Assembly: GCA_043805595.1 (NCBI GenBank) | Contig: JAZDHV010000006.1 | Location: 11,724 to 75,723, forward strand | Source: Candidatus Woesearchaeota archaeon | GTDB lineage: Archaea > Nanobdellota > Nanobdellia > Woesearchaeales > JAGVYU01 | DNA length: 64,000 nt | Direction of reading: 5' to 3' | Shown: positions 31,806-56,223 of the stretch, one piece after another | Layout: each line of letters opens with the position of its first letter | Position numbering within the stretch: the stretch's first letter is position 1 | Made by a program: the position numbers and the translations under genes | The notes under the pieces: model-generated | Databases searched by the model: none | What the model was told of the DNA's origin: nothing | What the model saw: the letters and a program-made list of their open reading frames with translations, nothing else

Positions 31806-32945
31806 ATGGATGTAAAAAGCATCAAGTTTTTGGACAAATATGTCGGCACCTTGGTATGCCTTAAGCTAGGGATACTTAACAAGCTGTTTTCCAGGAAGAA
31901 ATTAAAGGCTGTTGATAGGATATTAGTAATTCAATTATGGGGGATTGGAGAGACAATATTGACTTTGCCTGCAATCAAGGCATTAAGAGAACAATATAAG
32001 GATTCACAGATTGATATTTTGACCACAAAGAGAGCAAAGGATGTTTTTGAAGGACAAGGTTTTATTGATGATATAATTGTGATTGAGACAAATTTGTCGT
32101 CCATATCCAGGTTCATCTCCAAAAATTACAGGAAATATTCATTAGTTGTTGATTTTGAAGAGTATCTAAACATTTCCTCAATCATATCTTTTTTTGTGGG
32201 CAGTTTTAGAGTCGGCTATAAAAATAGGATAAGAGGGATGACTTTGTCTAAGTCAGTCTCTTATAATGACAAACAGCATGTTGTTGAAACTCATCTTGAC
32301 CTGATAAGACTAATTGGATATGACGGGAAAGTGGAAAGATTGGAAAGATTGAGGTATAGTAAGAAAGATAAAAATTATATTGAGATATTATTGGATGATA
32401 AAAAAGTGTCTAAAAATGATTTTTTAGCGGGATTGTTTGCAGGAGCAGCTGAGTCGGCAAAATCAAGGATGTGGATGAAGGAGAATTTTGCTGAGCTTGG
32501 TGACAGGCTAATTGAGGAGAAGAATGCAAAAATTGTGTTATTAGGAAGCTCAGATGATATCAAGTTAAATGATGAAATAATCAGATTGGTCAAGAATAAA
32601 GACAAGATTGATAATCTTGCTGGGAAAACAAGCCTGCAGCAATTGTTTTATCTTGAGGAAAGATGTGATTTAATCATTAGCAATGATTCAGGGCCAATGC
32701 ATATTGGAGCTGCAATGGATACAAAAACAATCGGGTTGTTTGGCCCAAATCTTCCAATCAGATGGAGACCTTTCCAGAAAGACAGTGTTGGACTGTATAA
32801 AGGAGGTATCTGTGAGTTTAGCCCTTGCATAAATGTGCATCTGGGGAAAGTGCCTGAATGCCTTCAGCCAAGTCATAATAACATCTGCATGAAAAATCTG
32901 GAGGTAGAGGATGTCATGAAACATATTGAGAAGTTGAAAAGCTGA
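31806..32945 (+). CDS. GT9 family glycosyltransferase (heptosyltransferase-like)
   Basis: 379 aa; N-terminal ILVIQLWGIGETILTLPAIKAL and C-terminal ISNDSGPMHIGAAMDTKTIGLFGP match GT9 (RfaF/WaaC) signatures. Confidence 0.8.
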   Translation: MDVKSIKFLDKYVGTLVCLKLGILNKLFSRKKLKAVDRILVIQLWGIGETILTLPAIKALREQYKDSQIDILTTKRAKDVFEGQGFIDDIIVIETNLSSISRFISKNYRKYSLVVDFEEYLNISSIISFFVGSFRVGYKNRIRGMTLSKSVSYNDKQHVVETHLDLIRLIGYDGKVERLERLRYSKKDKNYIEILLDDKKVSKNDFLAGLFAGAAESAKSRMWMKENFAELGDRLIEEKNAKIVLLGSSDDIKLNDEIIRLVKNKDKIDNLAGKTSLQQLFYLEERCDLIISNDSGPMHIGAAMDTKTIGLFGPNLPIRWRPFQKDSVGLYKGGICEFSPCINVHLGKVPECLQPSHNNICMKNLEVEDVMKHIEKLKS

Positions 32946-32987
32946 TAGAATACCTGATTTCTATTCTTATATTATTCTATTCTTCAA

Positions 32988-33743
32988 TTATTCTTCCATA
33001 TGATGATATTCGCCGTAAGTGAAAAACCCATTCAACTGCTTTATCCTTGCTAATCTTGGAAAAACATCTTTTTCCAAAGAAGCAGTATTTTCAAAGAGCT
33101 CAAAGATCTCTGGCTTAAAGATGTATATTCCTGCATTAACAATGAATGAGGTTGTCTGCCTCGGCTTTTCCTGAAAATCAATGATCTGATCTCCATCAAG
33201 AACTGCGTTCCCATACTGGGATGGCTTTTCTCTTGTCATCAGGCCCATTGTTGCAAGCTTATCATTATGGATATGCTTTGAGATCATCTTATTGAGGTCA
33301 AAATCATTGTAGACATCACCGCTTGAGACAATAAAATTTGAGTCATCCAACATCTTTTTTACCCTGAATAATGCATTTGCATTGCCTTTTGAATCATCCT
33401 CAATTATCTTGACATCCTGTGTAGTATGAAGGCATTCATGATTTATCTTATCAAGATGGTTTGAGGACTGGGTCACAATCAGAATCTTTTTGATACCAAA
33501 GCTATTGAAAAAATCAAGCTGATTCTTGATCAAGGTCTTTGACTTAAGATTCTTTAATGCCACCTTATGATGATCTGATTTTAGAAGTATCACAGCAGTG
33601 CTAATCTGCTGAGAGCCAAGACCTTTTTTTAGGTAGATCTCAAAAGCCTGGGATCTTGAGCGGATGATTGAGCCGTCTACTTTGGAGTCTAATATATCTA
33701 ACAATGGCTTATCCACAGAAATCGCAATCTTTTCCTTCTTCAT
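32988..33743 (-). CDS. Sugar-phosphate nucleotidyltransferase-like protein with N-terminal ~50-aa RHH-like extension
   Basis: 251 aa; central/C-terminal SSGDVYNDFDL...EKP...FIVNAGIYIF resembles NTP_transferase fold; canonical GxGTRL motif not evident. Confidence 0.5.
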   Translation of the reverse strand: MKKEKIAISVDKPLLDILDSKVDGSIIRSRSQAFEIYLKKGLGSQQISTAVILLKSDHHKVALKNLKSKTLIKNQLDFFNSFGIKKILIVTQSSNHLDKINHECLHTTQDVKIIEDDSKGNANALFRVKKMLDDSNFIVSSGDVYNDFDLNKMISKHIHNDKLATMGLMTREKPSQYGNAVLDGDQIIDFQEKPRQTTSFIVNAGIYIFKPEIFELFENTASLEKDVFPRLARIKQLNGFFTYGEYHHMEE

Positions 33744-33862
33744 TTTAACTTTGATGTATTACCCCCTAACAGTATGATATAGTAATACCTTTTTAATAAT
33801 TTATATTTTCTAAAATATATATCATATAACAATAATGTATTTAAATAAGGTAGAAGAATAGT

Positions 33863-34369
33863 ATGAATAGTTCATACTTTAATATAATATATAATGAAGG
33901 TGATTTTATGCCAAATAAAGCAGAGACAAATTTTCTTGATAAACCAGATGTATTATTGATTGGAAAGGCAAGCAGTGAATATGGATTATTTGAAAAAGTT
34001 TCTGAGAAAGTAAGACCTGAATCCAGAGCATTTATAGCAATTGGAGGAAAAGAATATGGAAACAGGCCAAATGATATCAGAAAAGTGCTTTTACAGCAAT
34101 TATCATACCCATTATGGAACGGATTTGTTGTAATTGATGACCCTCAAATTGATTCTGGGCTTCCAGAAGATGTAAAAAGGATCCTCAAGATACAATCAGC
34201 AGGGCAAAGGCATTCAGATCCAATATTCTTAGCATATTCTAAAGATCCTGAGCTTTTAAGCTTAAGGCCATATGTTGATTTTATCCAAAATGGAGTAGTT
34301 GGGAGTGATATTGCAGATTCAATTGCAAGATATTCAGTGGATAGGATTAATGAAAGAAAAAGGCATTAA
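33863..34369 (+). CDS. Hypothetical protein
   Basis: 168 aa ORF; no recognised motif. Confidence 0.35.
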   Translation: MNSSYFNIIYNEGDFMPNKAETNFLDKPDVLLIGKASSEYGLFEKVSEKVRPESRAFIAIGGKEYGNRPNDIRKVLLQQLSYPLWNGFVVIDDPQIDSGLPEDVKRILKIQSAGQRHSDPIFLAYSKDPELLSLRPYVDFIQNGVVGSDIADSIARYSVDRINERKRH

Positions 34370-34449
34370 TAAAGTCTTATTCTTAAATATGGTAATTGAC
34401 ATACTTCCGAATCTGAGCAAAGGAGATTCAGTAGAACATATATTGAATA

Positions 34450-35448
34450 ATGGAGAGAAACAACAGAATGTCAAATGATTATGATCTTAAAAATGCAATC
34501 AGCAATTTTGATAAAAGAAGGATTCTGGTATTAGGAGATATTGCCCTTGACCATTACCTAATTGGAGAAGTTGAGAGGATAAATCCAGAACAACCTGCTG
34601 CTCCATTAGTAAGAGTAAATGGACATAGGTATAACCTAGGGGCAGGAGGCAATGTTGCACAAAATCTGGCAACATTAGATGCAAAAGCAACCTTATGCGG
34701 ATTGATAGGAAATGACTTTTATGGGGGAAAGGTAGAGGAAATTTGCAGACAATATGGAATATCATTTATACCAGTATATAATGGAGATGATAGGAGCACT
34801 ACAGTAAAACAGAGACTATTAGCCCATCAACAACAAATTGCCAGATTTGATGAAGAAGATACAAGCCCAATATCTGAAGAAACAGGCCAAATGATCCTGG
34901 ACAGAATAAAACCTTGCATTGATGAAAGTGATGCAGTAATATTATCTGATTATAATAAAGGGCTACTAATTGAATCAGTTGTCAGAGAAGTAATAAAATA
35001 TGCAGCACAAAAAGGTGTCAAAGTTTATTCTGAAGTGAAACCAACAAATGCTATATTCTATCAAAACTCAACATTAGTATGCTGTAATCTTAGCGAAGCT
35101 GAACAATTCACTAATCTCAGACTAAATGGCAGAGCTGACAATATTATAAATATTGGAAGAGAAATGATGCAGAGATTATCTCCAGAATATTTAGTCATCA
35201 CACTAAGTGAAAGAGGAATGTTCAGCTATGATAGTCATCATAATCATGCTTTAGAACCTACAAAGGCAAAATCTGTTGTTGATGTTTCAGGAGCAGGCGA
35301 TACAGCTATCTCATTATTGGCATTAGCCAATCTTGAACTAGATATTCATGCATCTGCATATCTAGCGAATCATGGAGCAGGCGCTGCTATTGAAAAGGTT
35401 GGGACAGCCACTATCACAAGAGATGAGCTATTGAAAAGCCTATCATGA
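34450..35448 (+). CDS. PfkB-family sugar kinase, heptose 7-phosphate kinase-like (HldA / HldE domain I-like)
   Basis: 332 aa; ILVLGDIALDHYLIGEVERINPEQPAAPLVRV...GAGGNVAQNLATLDAKATLCGLIGNDFYG closely matches RfaE domain I signature; C-terminal DVSGAGDT. Confidence 0.7.
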   Translation: MERNNRMSNDYDLKNAISNFDKRRILVLGDIALDHYLIGEVERINPEQPAAPLVRVNGHRYNLGAGGNVAQNLATLDAKATLCGLIGNDFYGGKVEEICRQYGISFIPVYNGDDRSTTVKQRLLAHQQQIARFDEEDTSPISEETGQMILDRIKPCIDESDAVILSDYNKGLLIESVVREVIKYAAQKGVKVYSEVKPTNAIFYQNSTLVCCNLSEAEQFTNLRLNGRADNIINIGREMMQRLSPEYLVITLSERGMFSYDSHHNHALEPTKAKSVVDVSGAGDTAISLLALANLELDIHASAYLANHGAGAAIEKVGTATITRDELLKSLS

Positions 35449-35512
35449 CTAAAAAAGAATGATTGTGGATAAGATATGTTTAAATAAAAATAAATAATCC
35501 TAAATCAATATC

Positions 35513-36097
35513 ATGGCAAAAATAACAAAAGCTGTTTTTTTAGACAGGGATGGAACCATCAATGTCGACTATGGATTCACATATGAACTTATGAAATTCC
35601 GATTTGAAGAAGGAGTAATCCAAGGACTTCAAAAGCTCAAATTAAAAAAATATCTCTTGATCATTACAACTGGACAATCTGGAATGGGAAGAGGATATTA
35701 CACTAAAGAAGAATACAATAAATTTACTGATTTAATGCTGGAAGAACTTAAAAAACATGACATTCAATTAGAGGGAGTTTATTACTGCCCCCATCATCCT
35801 ATGGAAGGAAAAGGGGAATTTAAGATTGATTGCGGCTGCAGAAAGCCAAAGACTGGAATGATACAAAAAGCTGTAAAAGATATGGCAGATAAAGGAATTG
35901 ATATAGATGTCAAGAACAGCTTTGTAATAGGAGACAAGACAGATGATATCAAGATGGGTGAAAATGCTGGATGCAGAACAATCCTTTTATTGACTGAATC
36001 AGGGAAAAAAGGGAAAGATGGCCATTATGAGGTAAAACCTACATTTATTGCAAAAAACCTTGACAAGGCAGCAGATTGGATAATAAAAAATGATTGA
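35513..36097 (+). CDS. gmhB: D,D-heptose 1,7-bisphosphate phosphatase-like HAD hydrolase
   Basis: 194 aa; AVFLDRDGTIN motif I, CPHHP...CGCRKP zinc-binding insert and IGDKTDD motif typical of GmhB/HisB-N family. Confidence 0.75.
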   Translation: MAKITKAVFLDRDGTINVDYGFTYELMKFRFEEGVIQGLQKLKLKKYLLIITTGQSGMGRGYYTKEEYNKFTDLMLEELKKHDIQLEGVYYCPHHPMEGKGEFKIDCGCRKPKTGMIQKAVKDMADKGIDIDVKNSFVIGDKTDDIKMGENAGCRTILLLTESGKKGKDGHYEVKPTFIAKNLDKAADWIIKND

Positions 36098-36106
36098 GTT
36101 GTTAAT

Positions 36107-37003
36107 ATGATAGACTTTTCAAAGATCAAGACAATAAGCATCAAGGACAGGGAACATAAAGAAGCATTAGTCAGGTTTCCAAATCCAGATGACCCATTCA
36201 AGATAATTGAGAATGAAGACCTAAGAGAGCTTGCAGAGAGGATAATCGAGGCATACAATAAAAACAAACAGATAATATTCATGATAGGAGGTCATGTTGT
36301 AAAGACAGGGATGAGCGCCTATATTGTAGATCTGATGAAAAAAGGAGTGATAAACCATATTGCAATGAATGGAGCAACAAGCATACATGATTTTGAGATT
36401 GCAACATATGGAGAGACAAGCGAGGATGTTGAATCAGGAATTAAGAATGGTACCTTTGGAATGGTCAAAGAGACTGGAGAATTCATGAACAGTGCAATCA
36501 AAGAAGGTGCAGGCTCAGGAAATGGATATGGACATGCAATTGGCAAGAAGATTGATGAGCTAAATGGAAAGAATAAGGAGAAGAGTGTGCTGTATCAGGC
36601 ATATAATCTTGGGATACCAGCAACTGTCCATGTTGCAATAGGAAATGACACAATACATATGAATCCAAAATGTGATGGAAGCAGCCTGGGAAAAGCGACA
36701 TATATTGACTTTAAGAAATTTGCAGATACACTAAGCAAGGCTGACAAAGGAGTGATAGTCAATATCGGAAGCGCAGTGATATTACCAGAAACATTTTTAA
36801 AAGCAATTACAATTGTAAGAAATCTAGGATATGATATAGGTGATATCACAACTGCCAATCTAGATATGATTGACCATTACAGGCCAAGATTAAATGTTGT
36901 GGAAAGACCTGTAAGCGCTTTAGGAGGAAAGGGATTTGTTATTATAGAAAGGCATGAAAAGACAATCCCTAGTTTATACAAACTGATTATGAAGGCGATC
37001 TGA
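36107..37003 (+). CDS. Hypothetical protein inside heptose operon (function unknown; candidate for missing isomerase step by position only)
   Basis: 298 aa; no motif recognised by eye; 1-nt overlap with downstream cytidylyltransferase gene. Confidence 0.4.
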   Translation: MIDFSKIKTISIKDREHKEALVRFPNPDDPFKIIENEDLRELAERIIEAYNKNKQIIFMIGGHVVKTGMSAYIVDLMKKGVINHIAMNGATSIHDFEIATYGETSEDVESGIKNGTFGMVKETGEFMNSAIKEGAGSGNGYGHAIGKKIDELNGKNKEKSVLYQAYNLGIPATVHVAIGNDTIHMNPKCDGSSLGKATYIDFKKFADTLSKADKGVIVNIGSAVILPETFLKAITIVRNLGYDIGDITTANLDMIDHYRPRLNVVERPVSALGGKGFVIIERHEKTIPSLYKLIMKAI

Positions 37004-38718: not shown

Positions 38719-39681
38719 TTAGTCTTTAGTTTTATAATTCTTGTACCACTCAACAAAAATCCTTATGCCATCCTCAATCTTTATCTTAGGACTGTAATTC
38801 AACAATTTTTTTGCCTTACTGATATCTGCGCAGGTTATTGTTACATCACCTGGATTTATTGCCATCCTATTGATAATAGCCTTTTTTCCAAGATTTTTCT
38901 CAATCAATGAAATCAGATAATTAAGCTCAATAGGATTATTGTCCCCTAAATTGATTATCTCAAACTTAAGGTCAGCGTCCAAAGCTGAGATTATCCCATC
39001 ACAAATGTCGCTGACAAAGGTATAATCCCTTTTTGAGGATCCATCTCCAAAAACTGTGATCGGCCTTTGCTCATCTATAAGCCTTGTGAACTTGAAGATG
39101 GCCATATCAGGCCTGCCACCAGGACCATAGACTGTGAAAAACCTAAGGCATATAATGTTTATATTAAAGAGGCTATGATAAGTGTAGCAGAGGACTTCAC
39201 CTGCTTTTTTTGTAGCTGCATATGGTGATATTGGATAGTCTGTGTTATCTGACTCCTTAAATGGGATCTCTTCCCTATCTCCATAAACAGAAGATGATGA
39301 AGCAGACACAAATTTCTTGATATTATATTTTCTGGCAGACTCAAGCAAGTTCTGAAGCCCAATGATGTTCACATTTGAATATAACATTGGCTTTTCTATT
39401 GAAGGCCTGACACCAGCCATTGCAGCCAAATGGATTATCTTTTCAATATTTTCATGAGAAAATATTTCTTTTATCCCATCCATATCTGTGATATCTGCCT
39501 TGTAAAAAATAAAAGAATCTGGGAATGAACTCTTAAGCTCATCAATATTAGATTGCTTTAAATCCTGTCCATAATTATCACTCAGGTTATCAATACATAC
39601 AACAATATGGTCTTTTTCTAGAAGTTTCCTGCAAACAATGCTGCCAATAAGGCCAGCCCCCCCAGTAACTAATATTTTCAT
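38719..39681 (-). CDS. NAD-dependent sugar epimerase/dehydratase (SDR family; UDP-sugar 4-epimerase or ADP-heptose 6-epimerase-like)
   Basis: 320 aa; MKILVTGGAGLIGS Rossmann and YAATKKAGE (YxxxK) catalytic motif. Confidence 0.8.
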   Translation of the reverse strand: MKILVTGGAGLIGSIVCRKLLEKDHIVVCIDNLSDNYGQDLKQSNIDELKSSFPDSFIFYKADITDMDGIKEIFSHENIEKIIHLAAMAGVRPSIEKPMLYSNVNIIGLQNLLESARKYNIKKFVSASSSSVYGDREEIPFKESDNTDYPISPYAATKKAGEVLCYTYHSLFNINIICLRFFTVYGPGGRPDMAIFKFTRLIDEQRPITVFGDGSSKRDYTFVSDICDGIISALDADLKFEIINLGDNNPIELNYLISLIEKNLGKKAIINRMAINPGDVTITCADISKAKKLLNYSPKIKIEDGIRIFVEWYKNYKTKD

Positions 39682-39716: not shown

Positions 39717-40730
39717 ATGCCATATCCTATTACTATAAAAAAAAAGATTATATTTTTTCAGATGAAAAAGAAACAAATTATCAAAAATGTCATTTTTGGA
39801 GCAATTGCATTAGGATTGATCTGGTTACTACTGTCCCAAATATCACTTAAAAGCTTGTTTGAGACATTGAAAAATGCAGACATACAGCTTCTTTTTGTAG
39901 GATTTGTATTGTATGCAATAACCTATCTTTTCAGAACATTCAGGTTTAAGGCATTGCTTAATGACAGCATTAATGTGAACAATCTTTTCAAGATTGTATC
40001 ATTGCATGCACTATTGAATAATCTGATACCAGCAAGGCTTGGCGAGCTCAGTTTTGTGTATTTTACAAAAAAAATAGGCAATATCAAAAGTGCGCAATCA
40101 ATCTCAGTACTTATCATATGCAGGGTAATGGATTTTACTGTGTCATTGATAATATTCTCAATAGCGCTATTGAATATTGGAGAAATACCAAGCATAATGT
40201 CCAGTATTCTGAAAATAATGTCAGTCTTTCTGCTATTAATGATCATGCTGTTATTTATTTTAATATTTACAAGATATAACATCCATAAGATTGCTTTTAG
40301 GTTCTGCAACCTGCTGAAAATTGATCATTATAGATTTATATCCTTTCTTCTGGCAAAGATAAAAGAGATCATTGAAGAGATAAAAAATATTAAATCAAAT
40401 AAGAAGATGGTGCAGGTCATTATTTATTCTATATTAATCTGGGCCAGTTTCCTGACTTCATTTTATTTTATAATATTGAGCCTTAATATGCAGATAAGTT
40501 TATGGATAATAATGATAGCATTCATATTCCTTATGTGGGCAAGCATCCTGCCAATCCACTCATTTGGCGGATTTGGAACATCTGAAGGGGCTTGGGCAAT
40601 AGCAATGATTGCCCTTGGAACTGGAAAGGAACAAGCAATTATATCTGGATTTTCTGTGCACATACTCATGTATGTGTTTGTGATAATACTCTGTATTTTT
40701 GCAATTCCTATCTTAAGGAAGATAAAATAA
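39717..40730 (+). CDS. UPF0104 / LPG-synthase-TM-like polytopic membrane protein (putative flippase-like)
   Basis: 337 aa, ~8 TM; N-terminal IFGAIALGLIWLLLSQISLKSLFETLKNADIQLL resembles PF03706-type proteins often linked to GT2 genes; likely start at MKKKQ. Confidence 0.45.
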   Translation: MPYPITIKKKIIFFQMKKKQIIKNVIFGAIALGLIWLLLSQISLKSLFETLKNADIQLLFVGFVLYAITYLFRTFRFKALLNDSINVNNLFKIVSLHALLNNLIPARLGELSFVYFTKKIGNIKSAQSISVLIICRVMDFTVSLIIFSIALLNIGEIPSIMSSILKIMSVFLLLMIMLLFILIFTRYNIHKIAFRFCNLLKIDHYRFISFLLAKIKEIIEEIKNIKSNKKMVQVIIYSILIWASFLTSFYFIILSLNMQISLWIIMIAFIFLMWASILPIHSFGGFGTSEGAWAIAMIALGTGKEQAIISGFSVHILMYVFVIILCIFAIPILRKIK

Positions 40731-43906: not shown

Positions 43907-43909
43907 AAA

Positions 43910-46912: not shown

Positions 46913-47047
46913 ATTAGCTCATTATATGATTTTATATATAAATTTTACTAAAGTAGTCCTGTAAAAGGACACTCTTATTCATATACTTATTAGCCACCAC
47001 TTATTGGTAAGCAATGACTAAACCAGCCAAAGAGTTGGTTTACACAG

Positions 47048-47455: not shown

Positions 47456-47463
47456 AATATAGG

Positions 47464-49771: not shown

Positions 49772-50181
49772 TTATGATTGTGTGAATCATCTGGTTTCTT
49801 TAAATAATAATTTAAAACTAATCCTATAATAATCAATAAGATAAATGTGACTACTGCAGATATTTTTATTGAATTCAGAGGAAATGCCAAATAATAGGCT
49901 ATTGTTGAGAACAAACCTATTCCTATGAAGAAGGGGAGGAAAATCTTTTCATCCCTTTGCAAGTTGGTCTTTCTAAGGATTAAGTAGAATGGGAGAATGA
50001 AGAACAGGAAGATTATGATTATTGTGAGTAAGCCAGTTAATCCAAATATGGCTAATGAAAATACTGCAATGATTAGTGCAAGTCCAATGTTGAAATAAGG
50101 GTTGTTAATTTTCAATTTGATACACCCTGATATTTTCTCTATTATATGCAGGCTGGGAGTTGTTGAAGTTCTGTTGTTCAT
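49768..50181 (-). CDS. Small hydrophobic ORF overlapping 5' end of next membrane protein gene (possible frameshifted N-terminus)
   Basis: 137 aa, 3 TM; overlaps 50105..51670 in another frame by 77 nt. Confidence 0.3.
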   Translation of the reverse strand: MNNRTSTTPSLHIIEKISGCIKLKINNPYFNIGLALIIAVFSLAIFGLTGLLTIIIIFLFFILPFYLILRKTNLQRDEKIFLPFFIGIGLFSTIAYYLAFPLNSIKISAVVTFILLIIIGLVLNYYLKKPDDSHNHN

Positions 50182-51670
50182 TTGAGACTAATTGATCAAA
50201 TGTGTTTCGGTCACCTATAATAACAACATCACTATAATCATATATAACATGAGTATTTGGAATCCCTTGTTCCAATTCCTCAATATTAATGCCATTGAAA
50301 TGGCGCTGAGAGATGTACTGCATCCAGCGCTTCTTTGCCAATGAAGATGTACCCATATCTAGGATTACTGCAGATTCTAGAGTGTTCTCAGTCAGCCATT
50401 GAGAAACCTCAAATTGAGGCTGGTTAAGCCTTGATAGAGGTGATTCATAAAATGTGTTTAACATGTTTATTGAAGGTAGGATGTTGAAAATCAATGCAAG
50501 TGCAATAAAAATTATTATTAATGCATATTTTGCATAATCTTTTACTGGCTTTTTAAGTGGAATAAATGAGATTATTGCTAACAATCCAATTGCTGCTAAA
50601 GGTGCAAAAACCATGTTAGAAGCAGCTAATGAACGATGGACAAAAGGGCCTTTCCCAATGACATCTGCATGAATCACTATGTATAATGATACAATCCAGC
50701 CAAGCATGAAAATGTCCTGTGTTTTTCTTCTTAATGCAAGGAAGATTATTCCAAGCAGGATCAGAGGAATAATCCAGAGTCCGTTCATATCTGCAAATGA
50801 GAAATAAATCTCTGGAACACCTCCAAGATTGTCTGGCTTTTTAAACCAAGAGAATAATCTGCTGAAATCACCCTGAGTTCCTTCAACAGAAGGAGAGCCT
50901 TGGAAGGATTTTATCACATTTCCAGTCTGGTAAGGGAATATTGCGATTATTATCAAGAAAATTATTATAGGCAGAAACAATGTCTTCAGGTTGACTATGA
51001 AAATCTTTTTTTGTTTTATTGCCAAGAAAAGATAGATTATTGCCAATGCTGCCACTGAATGGAAAAAACCCATTGGATGGAGCAAGAGGTTGATAGCCAG
51101 TAGGACTGCTAATAGATACATGTAAATGGTCTTTTCTTCTTTTTTATTGTAATTGATGAAATACATGTAAAATAAGTAAATAATGATTGGAGTGAAAAAG
51201 TATGAGATCCTTTCAGGCCATTGGCCGAATAAGTAGACAAGAACATTCCTGCCTGCAAATGCAACCAGAATTGAGGAGAGGAAAGCAGGCCAGAATCCAT
51301 ACCATTTGTCAATTATGAAATAATTGATCAATACTATCAATGAGCAGAGGATTGCAATGAAAATGTAGAATGAGAGGAATCTGCTGTTTGTAAATGACTG
51401 CATTAGGGCTAGGTTTAAGTGGTAAGGAGGATGATACCAAAGTGTGTTCTCTTTGTAAGTATTGTCTAAACCATATCTATAATAGATGTATTTTGGCAGA
51501 TATATTATTGGCTGATCATAGGATGAAGTGTAATCTGCAACTGTGAAATGAGATGATGCGTCTACCTGGCCAAAAGGGATCTCATTTGTCCTTATAGGCT
51601 GTGTCCAGGTGAATATAGTGAAAAGGTAAAGGATTGTTATCATTAATATATGGATATGTTTGGATTTCAT
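50105..51670 (-). CDS. Large polytopic membrane protein with C-terminal soluble domain (GT-C fold-like)
   Basis: 521 aa; ~11 TM then ~120-aa hydrophilic C-terminus; architecture similar to 41588..43906 and 43910..45811. Confidence 0.45.
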   Translation of the reverse strand: MKSKHIHILMITILYLFTIFTWTQPIRTNEIPFGQVDASSHFTVADYTSSYDQPIIYLPKYIYYRYGLDNTYKENTLWYHPPYHLNLALMQSFTNSRFLSFYIFIAILCSLIVLINYFIIDKWYGFWPAFLSSILVAFAGRNVLVYLFGQWPERISYFFTPIIIYLFYMYFINYNKKEEKTIYMYLLAVLLAINLLLHPMGFFHSVAALAIIYLFLAIKQKKIFIVNLKTLFLPIIIFLIIIAIFPYQTGNVIKSFQGSPSVEGTQGDFSRLFSWFKKPDNLGGVPEIYFSFADMNGLWIIPLILLGIIFLALRRKTQDIFMLGWIVSLYIVIHADVIGKGPFVHRSLAASNMVFAPLAAIGLLAIISFIPLKKPVKDYAKYALIIIFIALALIFNILPSINMLNTFYESPLSRLNQPQFEVSQWLTENTLESAVILDMGTSSLAKKRWMQYISQRHFNGINIEELEQGIPNTHVIYDYSDVVIIGDRNTFDQLVSNEQQNFNNSQPAYNRENIRVYQIEN

Positions 51671-51702
51671 TATTATAAGTAAAAAGGTTAAATTATTTAA
51701 AT

Positions 51703-52645: not shown

Positions 52646-52703
52646 TATTGTTTTGTATTGATATTAAAGTTTTCAATTATTAGAAACATTTATAATTAAT
52701 ATA

Positions 52704-53756
52704 TTGTTCTTTATACCTATGGGGGGCTTTAGAATTTTAGTAATAAAATGCGGGGCATCAGGCGATGTAGTCAGGACTACTTTTATACTTCCTGGACTAA
52801 AGAAAAAACATAAGGGTTGTGATATCATTTGGGTGACTTCAAAATTCAATCTTGACCTGATAAAACATATTGACCTTATTGATGAGAAAATCGTATTTGA
52901 TGCAGATACAAAAGACAAGCTAAATGATGAATATGAAGTAGTTATTTCTTTAGATGATGAAAAAGCAATGTGTGAATTGGCAAGTTCTGTCAAAAGCAGG
53001 AAAATAATTGGAGCATACCTTGATCCTGATGGAAAAAGGAAGTATACAGATGATTCAGAACAATGGCTTGGAATGGGTTTGTTGAGGCCAGATGAGAAAG
53101 GTGGTAAAGAGAAAGCTGACAAACTCAAATTTGAGAACAAAAAAACCTATCAGCAGATTATTTCTGAAATATTAAGGATAGAGATGAACAAACCAATTGT
53201 CAGATATTCAGACAGTGAGACAGAGTTTGCAAGAAAATTTTCTGAAGAAAATGATATAAATAAAGATGATTTGGTCATTGGACTCAACACAGGTGCAGGA
53301 GGCAGATGGAAATACAAAAGAATAAGTGAAGAAAAAACAGCTGAACTAGCTGATAGATTAGTTAGGGGATTGGGAGCCAAAATCATATTATTTGGAGGGC
53401 CTGATGAGGTCGAGAGGAATAAAAAGATAATTGAGCTGGTCAATGAGCAAATAATTGATGCTGGATGCAATAACTCACTGCTTGAGTTTGCTGCACTAAT
53501 TGACCTGTGTGATGCAGTTGTGGCAAGCGACACACTTGGAATGCATCTGGGAATAGCACAAGACAAGAAAGTAGTGAGCTTTTTCGGCCCGACTCCTGCA
53601 GCTGAGATCGAGATGTATGGAAAAGGAGAAAAAATTGTGCCTGACAAAGACTGCCTGGTTTGCTATCTGATGGATTGCGATGAGAAAATTAAATGCATGG
53701 AATTGATAACATCTGATTTATTGTTTGATGCTGTGAAAAAGGTGCTTGGAAAATGA
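52704..53756 (+). CDS. GT9 family glycosyltransferase (heptosyltransferase-like), second copy
   Basis: 350 aa; N-terminal ILVIKCGASGDVVRTTFILPGLKK and C-terminal VASDTLGMHLGIAQDKKVVSFFGPTP GT9 signatures. Confidence 0.75.
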   Translation: MFFIPMGGFRILVIKCGASGDVVRTTFILPGLKKKHKGCDIIWVTSKFNLDLIKHIDLIDEKIVFDADTKDKLNDEYEVVISLDDEKAMCELASSVKSRKIIGAYLDPDGKRKYTDDSEQWLGMGLLRPDEKGGKEKADKLKFENKKTYQQIISEILRIEMNKPIVRYSDSETEFARKFSEENDINKDDLVIGLNTGAGGRWKYKRISEEKTAELADRLVRGLGAKIILFGGPDEVERNKKIIELVNEQIIDAGCNNSLLEFAALIDLCDAVVASDTLGMHLGIAQDKKVVSFFGPTPAAEIEMYGKGEKIVPDKDCLVCYLMDCDEKIKCMELITSDLLFDAVKKVLGK

Positions 53757-54460
53757 AGTCATTCGTAGTGGTGCCAACATATAATGAGAGCGAGAATATT
53801 CAGAATCTTCTTAATGAGCTGATCCAATTTGATATAGAAATTGTAGTAGTTGATGACAACAGCCCAGATGGGACTTCTGGGTTGGTTAAGGTAATGCAGA
53901 AGAAAAGCAAAAAGATACATCTGATAACAAGGACAACAGAGAGAGGGAGAGGGAGTGCAGGAATAGCTGGATTCAAGTATGCTTTGGCAAAAGGAGCAGA
54001 TGTTGCAGGTGAGATGGATGCTGATTATTCACATAATCCTAAGTATATCCCTAATATGCTTGAAAGAATAAAAGAATGTGATCTGGTACTTGGTTCTAGA
54101 CTGGTGAAGGGTGGAAAAGATATTGGAAGGCCATTATTGAGAAGGATAATCACAATATTAGCAAATCTTTATATACAAATAATACTAGGAATAAAAGCAA
54201 GGGATTGCAACTCAGGATACAGGTTTTTTAAGAGAAATGTGCTTGAAACAATCAATTTGGACAAAATGGTTTCTCAAGGGCCATCAATTGTGCAAGAGAT
54301 GCTTTACAAGACTCATCTTAAGGGATTTAAGATATGCGAGATACCTATAGAATTTGTTGAAAGGGAGAAAGGCAAATCAAAACTAGGGTTCAAACAATTA
54401 TACAAAGGATATATAATGGTATTAAAGCTCAAATGGTGGAGAATCACAGGAAGGATATGA
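53753..54460 (+). CDS. GT2 dolichyl-phosphate mannose/glucose synthase-like glycosyltransferase
   Basis: 235 aa; SFVVVPTYNESENI ... VVDDNSPDGT ... DADYSHNP; 4-nt overlap with upstream GT9. Confidence 0.8.
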   Translation: MKSFVVVPTYNESENIQNLLNELIQFDIEIVVVDDNSPDGTSGLVKVMQKKSKKIHLITRTTERGRGSAGIAGFKYALAKGADVAGEMDADYSHNPKYIPNMLERIKECDLVLGSRLVKGGKDIGRPLLRRIITILANLYIQIILGIKARDCNSGYRFFKRNVLETINLDKMVSQGPSIVQEMLYKTHLKGFKICEIPIEFVEREKGKSKLGFKQLYKGYIMVLKLKWWRITGRI

Positions 54461-55029
54461 ATATGGCAGATGAAGAATATAATGGAAGATGGAAAGTGCT
54501 TGAATCAGAATATTTAGTGCAGAACAAATGGGTGAATGTGAAAAGAGAGAAAATCAGATTACCCAATAATAAAATAATCAAAGATTATTATTTACTTGAA
54601 AGACCAGATTCTGTGATTGTTTTTTGCTTGACCAAACAAAACAAGATATTGATATTAAAACAATACAAGCATGGAGCGCAAGAAGAGATACAGGAGATTC
54701 CAGCAGGCATGATGGATGATAGAGAGTCTCCTGAAGACGCAGCAAGAAGAGAGGTTTTAGAAGAAACAGGATATAAGGTTGAGAATCTAGAAAAGATTGG
54801 AACAATATTTCTTGACCCAACTGCAACAAGAAGTACATGCCATATATATTTTGCAACTGGAGCTGAGAAAGTAGGTTCGCAAAAACTTGATGCAACTGAA
54901 GATATTACAGTCATGGAGATGACAAAAGAAGAAGTGCTTGGAAACCTGAAGAATTCAACAATCAATTCAGGTGTTGTTCCTGGAGCAATATTCTTAGGCC
55001 TTGAGAAGATGAAGGATATGGGAAAATGA
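54457..55029 (+). CDS. NUDIX hydrolase (ADP-sugar pyrophosphatase-like)
   Basis: Nudix box GMMDDRESPEDAARREVLEETG; start taken at MNMADEE. Confidence 0.8.
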   Translation: MNMADEEYNGRWKVLESEYLVQNKWVNVKREKIRLPNNKIIKDYYLLERPDSVIVFCLTKQNKILILKQYKHGAQEEIQEIPAGMMDDRESPEDAARREVLEETGYKVENLEKIGTIFLDPTATRSTCHIYFATGAEKVGSQKLDATEDITVMEMTKEEVLGNLKNSTINSGVVPGAIFLGLEKMKDMGK

Positions 55030-55122
55030 TAAAATCCAGGGGATTTTCAGGATGCCAAAAAAGGAAAAAAAATGGAGGAAGGAGAACTTTATAATTGAAT
55101 TATTGAGTTTTCCCTTTTTAGA

Positions 55123-56223
55123 ATGAGCCTGCTAAACAGAACAATAGGAATAATTGGAAATATTATATTTATCTTCAAGAAAAGAAAGATCAAGGAAGTG
55201 CTTGATCCTGAAAAAATACTGCTGATCAGATCTGCAAGCATAGGAGATGTGATGATGACAACTCCTGCAATCAAAGCATTGGCTGAGAAATATCCAAAAG
55301 CTAAGATTGATTATCTAGTTGGGAATTATTCAAAAAAAGTGTTAGAAGGAAATAATCATATTGATGAAATCATAGGATTTGATGAGGAAATCATCAGAAG
55401 GACAAAAATTGGAGGGATCATAAAGCTGATCAAAGAACTGAGGGCAAAGAAGTATGACTTATGCATTGTTTTTGACAAATCATGGATATGGGGATTATTC
55501 GCTTACCTCTGCAGGGTGAAATACAGGATTGGCTTCGACAGAAAAGGAGAAGGGTTTGCACATAATCTTAAAGTCAAGTTCAAGGGAGAAGAGTATGAGC
55601 TTGACTATAATAATTTATTATTAGGATTGCTTAAGATTGGAAATATAAGCAGACAGATGGAGATATTCATCTCTCCTGAAGAAAATAATGAGGCAGATGA
55701 AATTGTGAGAAAAGCAAAAACAAAGAGAACATTAATTGGGATTGCTCCAGGAGGGGCAAAGAATCCAGGGCAAGAGATGGACTCAAAAAGGCTGCCAAAA
55801 CCAAAATATGCCAAGATCTGCAATAAATTGATTGAGAAAAACAATATAATATTTTTTGGATCAAAAGAAGACAGTCATATAATATCTGATATCATGAAGC
55901 TTATGAAAACAAAACCCACAGACTTAAGCGGAAAATTAAGCCTGAAAGTGAGTGCAGCAGTTATTGGAAAATGTGATCTGTTCATATCCCATGATACAGG
56001 GCTGATGCATATAGCAGCTGCAATGAAAGTCCCTCAGATAGCAATATTCGGACCAACACCTCCAAAAAGGTTTTCACCAGAAAAAGCAAAAGTGGTTGCA
56101 GCAGGGCAGAAAAAAAGGTTATGTTATGACATGTATGGCAGATTTAACAAGAAATGCACATGCATACAGGAGATCAATGCAGATGAAGTCATTGAAGAAG
56201 CCAAGAGGATTCTTGGAGATTGA
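55123..56223 (+). CDS. GT9 family glycosyltransferase (heptosyltransferase-like), third copy
   Basis: 366 aa; ILLIRSASIGDVMMTTPAIKALAEKYP and ISHDTGLMHIAAAMKVPQIAIFGPTPP. Confidence 0.75.
   Translation: MSLLNRTIGIIGNIIFIFKKRKIKEVLDPEKILLIRSASIGDVMMTTPAIKALAEKYPKAKIDYLVGNYSKKVLEGNNHIDEIIGFDEEIIRRTKIGGIIKLIKELRAKKYDLCIVFDKSWIWGLFAYLCRVKYRIGFDRKGEGFAHNLKVKFKGEEYELDYNNLLLGLLKIGNISRQMEIFISPEENNEADEIVRKAKTKRTLIGIAPGGAKNPGQEMDSKRLPKPKYAKICNKLIEKNNIIFFGSKEDSHIISDIMKLMKTKPTDLSGKLSLKVSAAVIGKCDLFISHDTGLMHIAAAMKVPQIAIFGPTPPKRFSPEKAKVVAAGQKKRLCYDMYGRFNKKCTCIQEINADEVIEEAKRILGD

What the first reader, a model, noticed from the sequence alone, without database searches (positions are those of the whole stretch)
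31806..56223. Three GT9 (heptosyltransferase-like) glycosyltransferases in one archaeal locus alongside AglB
31806..32945, 52704..53756 and 55123..56223 all carry the N-terminal (S/A)xGDxx...P and C-terminal (S/N)DSG(P/L)MH(I/L)(A/G)AA...FGPT signatures of GT9, a family known from bacterial LPS inner-core heptosylation. Together with the heptose activation genes this predicts an LPS-core-like heptose oligosaccharide built in an archaeon, presumably on a lipid carrier or on protein. Each GT9 is paired with a GT2 Dol-P glycosyltransferase, suggesting stepwise assembly.
Basis: partly seen in the sequence, partly recalled or inferred. Interest (0 to 1): 0.6.

Follow-up and report, generated by a model that had tools for sequence, protein, structure and literature searches.

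The report
Archaeal heptose-glycan island with three GT9s
A DPANN (Woesearchaeota) archaeon carries three bacterial-LPS-type family-9 glycosyltransferases beside its protein N-glycosylation enzyme AglB and most of an ADP-heptose pathway, which suggests heptose-bearing surface glycans, not LPS, and offers a testable use for archaeal heptose nucleotides.

Summary
ORFs 31806-32945, 52719-53756 and 55123-56223 are all GT9 (PF01075, E 7e-33, 3e-16, 5e-38). For the weakest one, an AlphaFold model matches the solved GT9 structures best.

The contig is archaeal. Two of its proteins are 100% identical to proteins of an NCBI Woesearchaeota MAG. It also carries AglB with a WWDFG motif, TrmB and HTH_10 regulators, and a two-intron tRNA-Trp.

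The three GT9s are only 23-29% identical to each other and fall in separate, well-populated DPANN clades. Relatives keep a module: AglB, GT2, DUF2304, GT9, NTP-transferase, GmhA, a GSU2086-family protein, HldA, GmhB, HldC.

The most likely function is cytoplasmic heptosylation of a dolichol-linked glycan that is flipped and then transferred by AglB. This is inferred, not shown.

"LPS-core-like" is not supported:
- The lipid A/Kdo-binding residues of WaaC and WaaF are absent.
- No Kdo or lipid A genes are in the window.
- The pairing of each GT9 with a GT2 is only approximate.

This window has no GmhA. An orphan ORF sits in its place.

ADP-heptose genes in archaea, and a heptose in the Thermoplasma N-glycan, are already published. 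This is therefore a new member of known kinds and of moderate interest.

The parts
1953..2108 (+). tRNA-Trp(CCA) with two introns; context evidence for archaeal origin
   Evidence: Acceptor stem GGGGCTG/CAGCCCC read directly. ARAGORN calls it only after in-silico removal of a 30-34 nt T-arm insertion. Missed by ARAGORN and Rfam.
24148..25236 (+). FAD-dependent geranylgeranyl-reductase-like protein upstream of AglB; function as a polyprenol/dolichol reductase is inferred
   Evidence: PF01494. The same family lies just upstream of AglB in L012, L013 and L014.
27382..30711 (+). AglB, the oligosaccharyltransferase (STT3 family)
   Evidence: PF02516 at 155 bits and PF21436. WWDFG at residue 722 and 9 TM-like segments. 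Best NCBIfam match is archaeo_STT3.
30747..31412 (+). Soluble GT2, polyprenyl-phosphate glycosyltransferase type (PpgS/AglJ-like)
   Evidence: PF00535. Best NCBIfam matches PpgS at 123 bits and AglJ at 98 bits, both below cut-off. No TM segment.
31414..31755 (+). DUF2304 small membrane partner of the GT2
   Evidence: PF10066 at 72 bits. Three TM segments. The GT2-DUF2304 pair follows AglB in L003, L012, L013 and L014, and lies near it in L011.
31806..32945 (+). GT9-1, the AglB-adjacent GT9 paralogue
   Evidence: PF01075 at 114 bits. Orthologues at 50-61% identity in the same position in L003, L013 and L014. Clade bootstrap 200/200. Glu in place of the catalytic Asp13.
32988..33743 (-). Sugar-1-phosphate nucleotidyltransferase with an N-terminal extension of about 50 aa
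   Evidence: PF00483. 71% and 60% identical to the syntenic genes of L003 and L013.
33863..34369 (+). Orphan ORF (153-168 aa) in the position held by GmhA in relatives
   Evidence: No Pfam or NCBIfam match. Not similar to SIS proteins. Its only relatives are repeats in two proteins of about 4,650 aa.
34450..35448 (+). [quoted passage not shown]
   Evidence: TIGR02198 at 280 bits (cut-off 345), against 60 bits for ribokinase.
35513..36097 (+). GmhB, heptose 1,7-bisphosphate 7-phosphatase
   Evidence: TIGR00213 at 170 bits, above the cut-off of 149.6.
36107..37003 (+). GSU2086-family protein with a deoxyhypusine-synthase-like fold; function unknown, linked to heptose operons
   Evidence: NF052581 at 378 bits, above the cut-off of 250. 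AF2 model pLDDT 90.3 with DHS/LOR-SDH/ArgZ fold matches. Between GmhA and HldA in L013 and L014. Between hldE and gmhA in Geobacter (PMC5585712).
37003..37527 (+). HldC-like heptose-1-phosphate nucleotidyltransferase
   Evidence: TIGR02199 at 141 bits (cut-off 181.5). C-terminal FIEGFSTT, i.e. the STT motif without Arg5 (motif from PMC11573728).
37638..38567 (+). GT2 of the ArnC/GtrB type with two C-terminal TM helices (polyprenyl-phosphate sugar synthase)
   Evidence: PF00535. ArnC model at 208 bits, PgfS at 167 bits. TM segments at 229-254 and 261-279.
38719..39681 (-). SDR sugar-nucleotide epimerase/dehydratase; role as an HldD-like 6-epimerase unresolved
   Evidence: GalE at 179 bits, RmlB at 177 bits, heptose_epim at 110 bits (cut-off 274.6).
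39717..40730 (+). Flippase-like membrane protein (LPG_synthase_TM family)
   Evidence: PF03706 at 118 bits. TIGR00374 at 63 bits, above the cut-off of 43.
41588..43906 (+). YfhO-like polytopic membrane protein, a candidate GT-C glycosyltransferase
   Evidence: PF09586. 11 TM-like segments.
50105..51670 (-). DUF6541/PTPS-related polytopic membrane protein (GT-C-like), divergent from the GT9 genes
   Evidence: PF20176 and PF10131. 53% identical to the L003 gene. The same gene lies head-to-head with a GT9 in L003, L015 and L017.
52719..53756 (+). GT9-2, member of a deep Woesearchaeota/Nanoarchaeota GT9 clade
   Evidence: PF01075 at 60 bits. More than 120 clusters at about 50% identity, nearly all named hits DPANN. 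Clade bootstrap 197/200. AF2 model best matched by 3TOV, WaaF and WaaC.
53753..54460 (+). Soluble GT2 (PpgS/AglJ-like) between GT9-2 and GT9-3
   Evidence: PF00535 at 100 bits. NCBIfam match to PpgS at 79 bits. A GT9-2-type gene followed by a GT2 recurs in L002, L010 and L017.
54433..55029 (+). NUDIX hydrolase of the ADP-sugar pyrophosphatase type
   Evidence: PF00293. Matches to the YffH/AdpP and NudE families, below cut-off. Also present in L002.
55123..56223 (+). GT9-3, a WaaF-like GT9
   Evidence: PF01075 at 131 bits. TIGR02195 at 143.5 bits, above the cut-off of 134.6. 92% identical to P0001 and 56% to the L003 orthologue.
58016..59446 (+). Wzx/MOP-family flippase
   Evidence: PF01943 at 114 bits. 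12 TM-like segments. Wzx_EPS match.
59418..63951 (-). Further sugar-nucleotide modification genes: two SDRs, a UDP-sugar dehydrogenase fragment, an archaeal-type UDP-GlcNAc 3-dehydrogenase and a DegT aminotransferase

Best explanation
The region from about 24 to 64 kb is the surface-glycan (protein N-glycosylation) island of a Woesearchaeota (DPANN) archaeon.

Proposed pathway:
1. [quoted passage not shown] The enzymes are a GmhA encoded elsewhere (it is not in this window), HldA, GmhB and HldC. The conserved GSU2086-family protein has an unknown extra role.
2. The three soluble GT-B enzymes of family GT9 act at the cytoplasmic face of the membrane. They belong to three old, separate DPANN clades. 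They use this donor to add heptose to a dolichol-phosphate-linked oligosaccharide started by the AglJ/PpgS-like GT2.
3. GT9-1 is the conserved AglB-adjacent enzyme and probably acts early.
4. The lipid-linked glycan is flipped by the Wzx-type or flippase-like protein. AglB then transfers it to Asn of surface proteins, such as the large Ig/cadherin-like proteins encoded upstream.
5. The GT2 enzymes also make Dol-P-sugars that the GT-C-like membrane proteins (YfhO, DUF6541) use outside the cell.

Shown here: family memberships, gene order and its conservation, archaeal origin, conservation of donor-site residues, and loss of the LPS acceptor-site residues.

Inferred: heptose as the donor, a dolichol-linked acceptor, N-linked protein as the final destination, and the order of steps.
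For: - GT9 membership of all three proteins.
- Donor-site residues are conserved in all three: Asp269 (the 'heptose-sensing' residue of WaaF), His274 and Lys195 as K or R. The catalytic Asp13 is D, D and E (residue roles from bioRxiv 10.1101/2022.06.13.495986).
- HldA, GmhB and HldC are each the best family match.
- The module AglB-GT2-DUF2304-GT9-NTP-GmhA-(GSU2086)-HldA-GmhB-HldC is conserved in three other Woesearchaeota-type contigs.
- A GT4 replaces the GT9 directly after DUF2304 in L011 and L012. This fits a swappable glycan-extending step.
- The GT9s have no TM segments. AglB has WWDFG, and Wzx and GT-C-like proteins are present.
- An ADP-sugar-type NUDIX hydrolase lies next to GT9-3.
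- Precedents: the Thermoplasma N-glycan contains a heptose (PMC11407970). ADP-heptose clusters sit in glycosylation regions of Iplasma and M. maripaludis (PMC3750248, PMC12667266). Archaeal heptose enzymes are active (PMC11573728).
Against: - No GmhA is present in the 64-kb window. Its usual slot holds an unrelated orphan ORF, so heptose supply in this genome is unproven.
- HldA and HldC score below the NCBIfam equivalog cut-offs.
- GT9-2-type and some GT9-3-type genes in other contigs have no heptose genes within 10 kb.
- Donor sugar cannot be read from a GT9 sequence alone.
- No biochemical or glycan data exist for any DPANN archaeon.
- The acceptor is unknown.
Confidence: 0.55

Rival explanations
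1. The GT9s build a lipid-anchored heptoglycan or glycolipid, a functional analogue of the LPS inner core on an archaeal lipid, that is never transferred to protein.
For: Characterised GT9s such as WaaC and WaaF act on a lipid-anchored acceptor. The island holds a flippase-like LPG_synthase_TM protein and several GT-C-like proteins that could serve a glycolipid pathway.
Against: The Kdo2-lipid A phosphate-binding residues are not conserved. No Kdo or lipid A genes are in the window. GT9-1 is tightly and repeatedly linked to AglB.
Confidence: 0.2
2. One or more of the GT9s, most likely GT9-2, uses a donor other than a heptose nucleotide. 'Heptosyltransferase' would then be only a family label.
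For: GT9-2 forms a deep separate clade (197/200) with an altered donor motif, D-S/T-L-A/G-M/L-H, and His is replaced by Asn in 7 of 40 members. GT9-2-type loci L015 and L017, and the GT9-3-type loci L010 and L011, show no heptose genes within 10 kb. The GT9-3 homologue in L012 sits beside two cytidylyltransferase-like genes only.
Against: Asp271 (equivalent to the heptose-contacting Asp261/269) and Lys200 are invariant in the GT9-2 clade. A GT9-2-type protein (P0360) is reported on a contig of the same length, 213,425 bp, as the one carrying the full heptose module in L014. All solved closest structures are heptosyltransferases or uncharacterised GT9s.
Confidence: 0.3
3. The heptose branch is decaying in this particular genome. 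GmhA has been lost and replaced, the operon has been rearranged, and the GT9s are idle or repurposed.
For: GmhA is absent and an orphan ORF occupies its place. A 26-aa relic of an S6PP-type phosphatase domain lies at 34371-34448. Gene order differs from L013 and L014.
Against: HldA, GmhB, the GSU2086-like gene, HldC and all three GT9 ORFs are intact and full length with their catalytic residues. GmhA could lie in the roughly 35 kb of the contig outside the window or elsewhere in the genome.
Confidence: 0.15
4. The GT9s are direct protein heptosyltransferases like the bacterial autotransporter heptosyltransferases TibC and AAH.
For: GT9-1 and GT9-2 have a C-terminal four-Cys cluster, and GT9-3 has three Cys. 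TibC has a four-Cys iron finger in its C-lobe; in the window's GT9s the cluster lies in the C-terminal tail after FGPT, but the two were not aligned or superposed. TibC appears among the structural matches.
Against: TibC matches only at TM about 0.5, behind 3TOV, WaaF and WaaC. The window's GT9s begin directly with the Rossmann beta1 strand, which leaves no room for TibC's N-terminal beta-barrel of about 97 aa. The Cys cluster is common in ordinary bacterial GT9s.
Confidence: 0.05
5. The contig is bacterial contamination or a chimera.
For: GT9, HldA, GmhB and HldC are typically bacterial families.
Against: The window carries AglB/STT3 with WWDFG, three or more TrmB regulators, HTH_10 and a two-intron tRNA-Trp. 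It has 100% matches to Woesearchaeota MAG proteins. The same AglB-GT9-heptose synteny occurs in several independent DPANN contigs of 200-300 kb. GC content is even at 0.32-0.39 across the window.
Confidence: 0.02

Closest known systems
E. coli LPS heptosyltransferases WaaF (HepII), WaaC (HepI) and WaaQ (HepIII), CAZy family GT9
   Same: Same Pfam family and GT-B fold. The D(S/T)GxxH donor motif, the donor-binding Lys and the catalytic acidic residue at position 13 are shared. GT9-3 passes the HepII NCBIfam cut-off.
   Different: Only 19-26% identical. The basic residues that bind Kdo2-lipid A are not conserved. The organism is an archaeon and no Kdo or lipid A genes are in the window. The genomic partner is AglB rather than the waa/lpx genes. 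A C-terminal Cys cluster is present that the E. coli enzymes lack.
Veillonella parvula GT9 (PDB 3TOV), an uncharacterised structural-genomics protein
   Same: Best sequence match in the PDB for GT9-3 (E 2.4e-24). Best structural match for the GT9-2 model (TM 0.75).
   Different: Bacterial, of unknown function, and about 21% identical.
Archaeal Agl N-glycosylation pathways (Haloferax volcanii AglB, AglJ, AglD, AglR, AglS; Methanococcus)
   Same: The logic matches: an AglB oligosaccharyltransferase, Dol-P-sugar-forming GT2s (AglJ-like matches), a Wzx-type flippase, GT-C-like enzymes and sugar-nucleotide genes, all clustered together.
   Different: From my own knowledge, no characterised Agl pathway uses a GT9 enzyme or ADP-heptose. 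All Agl-model matches here are below cut-off.
ADP-heptose pathway (GmhA, HldE or HldA+HldC, GmhB, HldD) and the archaeal heptose biosynthetic enzymes of Tang et al. 2024
   Same: HldA-, GmhB- and HldC-type genes lie in one operon. Such enzymes are already reported in archaea (PMC11573728).
   Different: GmhA is missing from the window. HldC lacks the Arg5 of the STTR5 promiscuity motif. An extra GSU2086-family gene is present. There is no clear HldD.
Mycobacterial PpgS (Rv3631) with its DUF2304 partner
   Same: A soluble GT2 whose best match is the PpgS model lies directly before a DUF2304 membrane protein.
   Different: The score (123 bits) is far below the PpgS cut-off of 370. The sugar is unknown and the context is archaeal. 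The PpgS-Rv3632 relationship itself is recalled from my own knowledge, not tested here.
TibC/AAH autotransporter heptosyltransferases
   Same: They use ADP-heptose, have a GT-B core and carry a four-Cys metal finger in the C-lobe (PMC4358343).
   Different: Weaker structural match (TM about 0.5). No N-terminal beta-barrel is present.

Membership tests
CAZy GT9 / Pfam PF01075 | Match to the family profile above the curated threshold | tested here: met
   114.3, 59.8 and 131.2 bits against a cut-off of 22.
CAZy GT9 / Pfam PF01075 | GT-B fold closest to solved GT9 structures | tested here: met
   Tested for GT9-2, the weakest member. AF2 model pLDDT 90.8. Top PDB matches are 3TOV, 1PSW (WaaF) and 2GT1/2H1H/6DFE (WaaC). 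GT9-3 matches 3TOV and 1PSW by sequence. GT9-1 was not modelled.
CAZy GT9 / Pfam PF01075 | Donor-site motif D(S/T)GxxH plus Lys192/195, and a catalytic acidic residue at position 13 | tested here: met
   Asp and His are present in all three. Position 195 is R, K and K. Position 13 is E, D and D. In the GT9-2 clade D16, K200 and D271 are invariant and His is present in 33 of 40 members.
CAZy GT9 / Pfam PF01075 | Heptosyl (or other glycosyl) transfer activity | not testable with these tools
   Needs an enzyme assay.
LPS heptosyltransferase I/II/III (WaaC, WaaF, WaaQ equivalogs) | Score above the NCBIfam equivalog cut-off | tested here: inconclusive
   Only GT9-3 passes TIGR02195 (143.5 against 134.6). 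GT9-1 scores 109.4 and GT9-2 scores 52.3. All other Waa models are far below cut-off.
LPS heptosyltransferase I/II/III (WaaC, WaaF, WaaQ equivalogs) | Conserved basic residues that bind the Kdo2-lipid A acceptor (WaaC R60, R63, K64, K98, R120, R143; WaaF R69, K92) | tested here: not met
   Mostly replaced by non-basic residues in all three proteins and their orthologues.
LPS heptosyltransferase I/II/III (WaaC, WaaF, WaaQ equivalogs) | Host makes Kdo-lipid A | tested here: not met
   No Lpx, Kds or WaaA family was found among the 56 window ORFs scanned, and the host is a DPANN archaeon. Only the 64-kb window could be tested, not the whole genome.
[quoted passage not shown] | GmhA (SIS) isomerase | tested here: not met
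   No SIS match in the window by Pfam, NCBIfam or tblastn with three DPANN GmhA sequences. It is present in relatives L003, L013 and L014.
[quoted passage not shown] | HldA kinase, GmhB phosphatase and HldC nucleotidyltransferase | tested here: met
   GmhB is above cut-off (170 against 149.6). HldA (280 against 345) and HldC (141 against 181.5) are below the equivalog cut-off, but each is the best match by a wide margin.
[quoted passage not shown] | HldD 6-epimerase | tested here: inconclusive
   Three SDRs match GalE/RmlB models better than heptose_epim (110, 50 and 83 bits against a cut-off of 274.6).
Archaeal AglB oligosaccharyltransferase | STT3 domain, a multi-TM N-terminal part and the WWDxG motif | tested here: met
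   PF02516 at 155 bits. WWDFG at residue 722 and 9 TM-like segments.
BAHT (TibC/AAH) protein heptosyltransferases | N-terminal beta-barrel, beta-hairpin thumb and a four-Cys iron finger | tested here: not met
   The Cys cluster is present. There is no N-terminal barrel, because the proteins begin at the Rossmann beta1 strand. The TibC structural match has TM of only about 0.5.

The most novel reading that the evidence does not exclude
Woesearchaeota, and perhaps many DPANN archaea, coat their surface proteins with N-glycans that carry several heptoses. These would be added by three anciently diverged archaeal GT9 clades acting on dolichol-linked intermediates. That would be the first physiological use for archaeal heptose nucleotides. 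The GSU2086-family protein (DHS-like fold), conserved in heptose operons from Geobacter to Woesearchaeota, would be a so far unrecognised enzyme of heptose-nucleotide metabolism.
Probability: 0.3. Interest if true: 0.6.

Novelty: new member of a known kind. Interest (0 to 1): 0.38.

Why it matters
A commentary on the 2024 discovery of heptose-nucleotide enzymes across kingdoms states that why archaea make manno-heptose 'remains elusive' (PMC11573728). This locus and its conserved relatives give a concrete, testable answer. In them, GT9 transferases are physically linked to AglB and to the heptose pathway, which points to heptosylated N-glycans or other surface glycans in DPANN archaea.

The finding also shows that GT9 is not just an LPS family. 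Woesearchaeota hold at least three old GT9 clades whose acceptor sites differ from the LPS enzymes. For symbiotic DPANN cells, surface glycans may matter for host contact.

The practical caution is that automatic names such as 'lipopolysaccharide heptosyltransferase II' in these MAGs should not be read as evidence of LPS.

Tried and rejected
- ARAGORN (default and intron mode) and Rfam (gathering and E-value modes) found no tRNA. Only manual reading plus in-silico intron removal recovered tRNA-Trp.
- Exact-sequence look-ups of window proteins (GT9-3 and P0121) found no contig on record. The remaining roughly 35 kb of the source contig therefore could not be read to look for GmhA.
- The single genome-contig scan with GT9-3 returned only the 92% relative plus four distant bacterial loci. 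It gave no taxonomic survey of GT9 in Archaea.
- The idea that orf168 is a diverged GmhA was rejected. It has no similarity to SIS proteins, and its only relatives are repeats in two giant proteins.
- The idea that the GSU2086-family protein replaces GmhA was rejected. Both co-occur in L013, L014 and Geobacter.
- The first bootstrap run timed out. The second was invalid because of a NaN in the distance correction. Only one search is used.
- Literature searches found no paper on GT9 or heptosyltransferases in DPANN or Woesearchaeota.
- A phylogeny against characterised non-heptose GT9s could not be made, because no such reference sequences were available.
- The tree is neighbour-joining on 332 columns, not maximum likelihood.

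Full report
**Observation**

Each matches Pfam PF01075 (Glyco_transf_9) far above the 22-bit gathering score:
- 31806-32945: 114.3 bits, E 7e-33.
- 52704-53756: 59.8 bits, E 3e-16, C-terminal half only.
- 55123-56223: 131.2 bits, E 5e-38.

Against NCBIfam, all three match the HepI, HepII and HepIII models best. Only GT9-3 passes an equivalog cut-off (TIGR02195 HepII, 143.5 against 134.6).

For GT9-2, the weakest member, an AlphaFold model built on 40 homologues has pLDDT 90.8. In the PDB it is matched best by the GT9 protein 3TOV (TM 0.75), then WaaF (1PSW) and WaaC (2GT1, 2H1H, 6DFE). TibC follows at a distance.

GT9-2 most likely starts at the ATG at 52719. The NCBI protein P0241 is 100% identical over 52719-53756.

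- GT9-1 has GIGE, not GD, at the N-terminus.
- The C-terminal motifs are NDSGPMH...FGPN in GT9-1, SDTLGMH...FGPT in GT9-2 and HDTGLMH...FGPT in GT9-3.

**Origin**

The window comes from a DPANN archaeon.
- The GSU2086-like protein and GT9-2 are 100% identical to proteins of an NCBI 'Candidatus Woesearchaeota archaeon' MAG, on a 99,375-bp contig.
- GT9-3 is 92% identical to a protein of another Woesearchaeota MAG.

Archaeal features inside the window:
- AglB/STT3 (155 bits) with a WWDFG motif.
- Three or more TrmB regulators and one HTH_10 regulator.
- A tRNA-Trp(CCA) at about 1953-2108 that carries two introns. ARAGORN and Rfam miss it. I read the acceptor stem directly. ARAGORN calls the gene once a 30-34 nt insertion in the T-arm is deleted in silico.

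GC content is even across the window. Contamination is therefore very unlikely.

**Anatomy of the island**

Upstream lie genes for very large Ig/cadherin-like surface proteins (9448-20201) and a geranylgeranyl-reductase-like FAD enzyme (24148-25236). The island then runs as follows:

| Coordinates | Gene |
|---|---|
| 27382-30711 | AglB |
| 30747-31412 | soluble PpgS/AglJ-like GT2 |
| 31414-31755 | DUF2304 membrane partner |
| 31806-32945 | GT9-1 |
| 32988-33743 (-) | sugar-1-P nucleotidyltransferase |
| 33863-34369 | orphan ORF |
| 34450-35448 | HldA-like kinase |
| 35513-36097 | GmhB |
| 36107-37003 | GSU2086-family protein |
| 37003-37527 | HldC-like nucleotidyltransferase |
| 37638-38567 | ArnC/GtrB-type GT2 with two C-terminal TM helices |
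| 38719-39681 (-) | SDR |
| 39717-40730 | flippase-like protein |
| 40815-41573 | methyltransferase |
| 41588-45811 | two polytopic membrane proteins, one YfhO-like |
| 46154-46912 (-) | TrmB |
| 50105-51670 (-) | DUF6541/PTPS-related GT-C-like membrane protein |
| 52719-53756 | GT9-2 |
| 53753-54460 | second soluble GT2 |
| 54433-55029 | ADP-sugar-type NUDIX hydrolase |
| 55123-56223 | GT9-3 |
| 56220-56915 | HTH_10 regulator |
| 58016-59446 | Wzx flippase |
| 59418-63951 (-) | further sugar-nucleotide modifying enzymes |

The GT9s have no TM segments, so they should act in the cytoplasm or at the inner face of the membrane.

**The heptose genes**

- GmhB passes its cut-off (170 against 149.6).
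- HldA (280 against 345) and HldC (141 against 181.5) fall below the equivalog cut-offs. Each is still by far the best match for its protein.
- HldC ends in FIEGFSTT. This is the (F/L)xxG-x-STT motif of heptose nucleotidyltransferases, but without the Arg5 that marks promiscuous CDP-/UDP-heptose makers (PMC11573728). ADP-heptose is therefore the likely product. This is an inference.
- GmhA is missing. There is no SIS match by Pfam or NCBIfam, and tblastn with three DPANN GmhA sequences finds nothing in the 64 kb.
- The slot that holds GmhA in relatives is filled by a 153-168 aa ORF. Its only relatives among 1.8 billion representatives are repeats inside two proteins of about 4,650 aa.
- A 26-residue relic of an S6PP-type phosphatase domain lies just upstream of HldA.
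- None of the three SDRs is clearly an HldD.

**Comparative genomics**

The linkage is conserved.
- In two Woesearchaeota contigs (L013 at 228 kb, L014 at 213 kb) the order is FAD reductase, AglB, GT2, DUF2304, GT9, (one gene), NTP-transferase, GmhA, GSU2086-family, HldA, GmhB, HldC, GT2.
- In L003 (a 309-kb metagenome contig) the order is AglB, GT2, DUF2304, GT9, NTP-transferase, GmhA, a phosphatase-kinase fusion, HldC, DUF6541, GT9, GT9.
- The AglB-adjacent GT9s of these loci are 50-61% identical to GT9-1.
- In L011 and L012 a GT4 takes the place of the GT9 right after DUF2304, and a GT9 lies a few genes further on.
- The unit of GT9-2, GT2 and GT9-3 recurs in L002 and L010.
- A GT9-2-type gene lies head-to-head with a DUF6541 gene in L015 and L017, and is directly followed by a GT2 in L017. 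Neither locus has heptose genes within 10 kb.

**Relationships among the three GT9s**

- They are only 23-29% identical to each other. This is about as far as each is from E. coli WaaF.
- A neighbour-joining tree (332 columns, 45 sequences) puts them in three separate DPANN clades. Bootstrap support is 200/200 for the AglB-adjacent GT9-1 clade, 197/200 for the GT9-2 clade and 180/200 for GT9-3 with its closest orthologues.
- GT9-1 and GT9-3 sit among WaaF-like bacterial sequences. GT9-2 is a deep branch of its own.
- Each clade has many members in Woesearchaeota or Nanoarchaeota MAGs. They are old residents of the lineage, not a recent transfer into this genome.

**Active-site reading**

(residue roles)
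- The donor side is conserved. Asp269 (the WaaF 'heptose-sensing' residue, equivalent to WaaC Asp261), His274 and Lys195 (K or R) are kept.
- The catalytic base at position 13 is Asp in GT9-2 and GT9-3, and Glu in the whole GT9-1 clade.
- The acceptor side is not conserved. The Arg/Lys residues that hold the phosphates of Kdo2-lipid A in WaaC and WaaF are mostly replaced.
- GT9-1 and GT9-2 carry a four-Cys cluster after the FGPT motif, and GT9-3 carries three Cys. Most bacterial homologues have the cluster, but E. coli WaaC, WaaF, WaaQ and WaaU lack it. TibC has a four-Cys iron finger in its C-lobe (PMC4358343). Whether the two clusters correspond structurally was not tested. It is a general GT9 feature, not an archaeal novelty.

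**Mechanism proposed**

The best-supported reading has four steps:
1. [quoted passage not shown] The GmhA step is encoded elsewhere or is missing.
2. The three soluble GT9s add heptose to a dolichol-phosphate-linked glycan begun by the AglJ/PpgS-like GT2.
3. The glycan is flipped by Wzx or the flippase-like protein.
4. AglB transfers it to Asn of surface proteins.

The GT2 and GT-C-like proteins would add further sugars from Dol-P-sugars outside the cell.

Family memberships, synteny and residue conservation are shown. The donor, the acceptor, the destination and the order of steps are inferred.

Overall confidence in the full model is about 0.55. It is higher for 'GT9-1 is a heptosyltransferase of the AglB pathway' and lower for GT9-2.

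Rival readings:
- A lipid-anchored heptoglycan that never reaches protein (0.2).
- A non-heptose donor for one or more paralogues (0.3; not exclusive of the main model).
- Decay of the heptose branch in this genome (0.15).
- Direct protein heptosylation in the manner of TibC (0.05).
- Contamination (0.02).

**Comparison with what is known**

- Heptose-nucleotide enzymes in archaea are published, and their purpose is stated to be unknown (PMC11573728).
- The Thermoplasma acidophilum N-glycan contains a heptose (PMC11407970).
- ADP-heptose clusters next to glycosylation genes were noted in Iplasma (PMC3750248) and in M. maripaludis strains KA1 and JJ (PMC12667266).
- NCBI already labels these DPANN proteins 'glycosyltransferase family 9' or 'lipopolysaccharide heptosyltransferase II'.
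- I found no paper that discusses GT9 or heptosyltransferases in DPANN.

The proteins are members of GT9. They should not be filed as LPS heptosyltransferases, because the acceptor-site test and the Kdo/lipid A context test are not met.

**Verdict**

'LPS-core-like', one-to-one GT2 pairing and a complete activation pathway are not supported.

Novelty is a new member of known kinds, with a useful system-level hypothesis. Interest is 0.38.

The most interesting side observation is the GSU2086-family protein:
- It has a DHS-like fold.
- It is about 60% conserved across Woesearchaeota.
- It is embedded in heptose operons in Woesearchaeota and also in Geobacter. There it lies between hldE and gmhA and shares their Tn-seq phenotype.
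- Its function is unknown.

Noticed in passing
window 36107-37003 (+); L013 8001-8897; L014 8001-8897: A GSU2086-family protein (NF052581, 378 bits) with a deoxyhypusine-synthase-like fold (AF2 pLDDT 90.3; DHS, LOR/SDH and ArgZ matches at TM about 0.55-0.6) is embedded in the heptose operon. It is about 60% conserved across many Woesearchaeota. In Geobacter sulfurreducens it lies between hldE and gmhA and shares their Tn-seq phenotype. It may be an uncharacterised, possibly NAD-dependent, step of heptose-nucleotide metabolism.
   Followed up: partly
window 1953-2108 (+): A tRNA-Trp(CCA) with two introns: about 50 nt in the anticodon loop and about 30-34 nt in the T-arm. ARAGORN and Rfam miss it. 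It is recovered only by in-silico removal of the T-arm insertion.
   Followed up: yes
window 1690-1712, 1800-1825, 2128-2150, 2300-2325, 2530-2560: Repeated short palindromic motifs of the form CCACCAGTCATAGACTGGTGG flank the tRNA-Trp gene in the 880-bp intergenic region. Their meaning is unknown.
   Followed up: no
window 33863-34369 (+): An orphan ORF (153-168 aa) sits where relatives have GmhA. Its only detectable relatives are 28-33 repeated stretches in two proteins of about 4,650 aa that have no Pfam domain (P0362, P0363). It looks like a captured fragment of a giant-protein repeat.
   Followed up: partly
window 34371-34448 (+): A 26-residue relic, 54% identical to the S6PP/HAD phosphatase domain of the phosphatase-kinase fusion in L003, lies just upstream of HldA and in another frame. 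It suggests that an older fused phosphatase was lost and replaced by GmhB.
   Followed up: partly
window GT9-1 residues ~335-362, GT9-2 residues 312-326, GT9-3 residues ~331-344: A C-terminal Cys cluster lies after the FGPT motif: four Cys in GT9-1 and GT9-2, three in GT9-3. It is also present in most bacterial GT9 homologues but absent from E. coli WaaC, WaaF, WaaQ and WaaU. TibC has a four-Cys iron finger in its C-lobe, but no alignment or superposition was made. It is probably a metal site.
   Followed up: partly
window 32988-33743 (-): The conserved sugar-1-P nucleotidyltransferase has an N-terminal extension of about 50 residues (KIAISVDKPLLDILD...RSRSQAFEIYLKKGL). By eye it resembles a ribbon-helix-helix DNA-binding domain. 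The extension is also present in the L003 and L013 orthologues.
   Followed up: no
window 3434-6075 and 46154-49771: Two similar units are present, each a TrmB-family regulator next to unannotated ORFs and a protein ending in a PEP-utilizer mobile domain. The 47048-49771 part is absent from the 92%-related contig L002, which has two 122-aa ORFs there.
   Followed up: no
L017 1076-2853: Split transketolase genes (N-terminal and pyrimidine-binding/C-terminal halves) sit inside a glycan island that contains a GT9-2-type gene. They could be a source of sedoheptulose-7-phosphate.
   Followed up: no
window 9448-20201 (-): Two very large predicted surface proteins (1,565 and 1,417 aa; Big_9, cadherin-like and He_PIG domains) and a 437-aa FixG_C/NPCBM_assoc protein lie upstream of the AglB island. 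A similar arrangement occurs in L012. They are candidate glycoprotein substrates.
   Followed up: no
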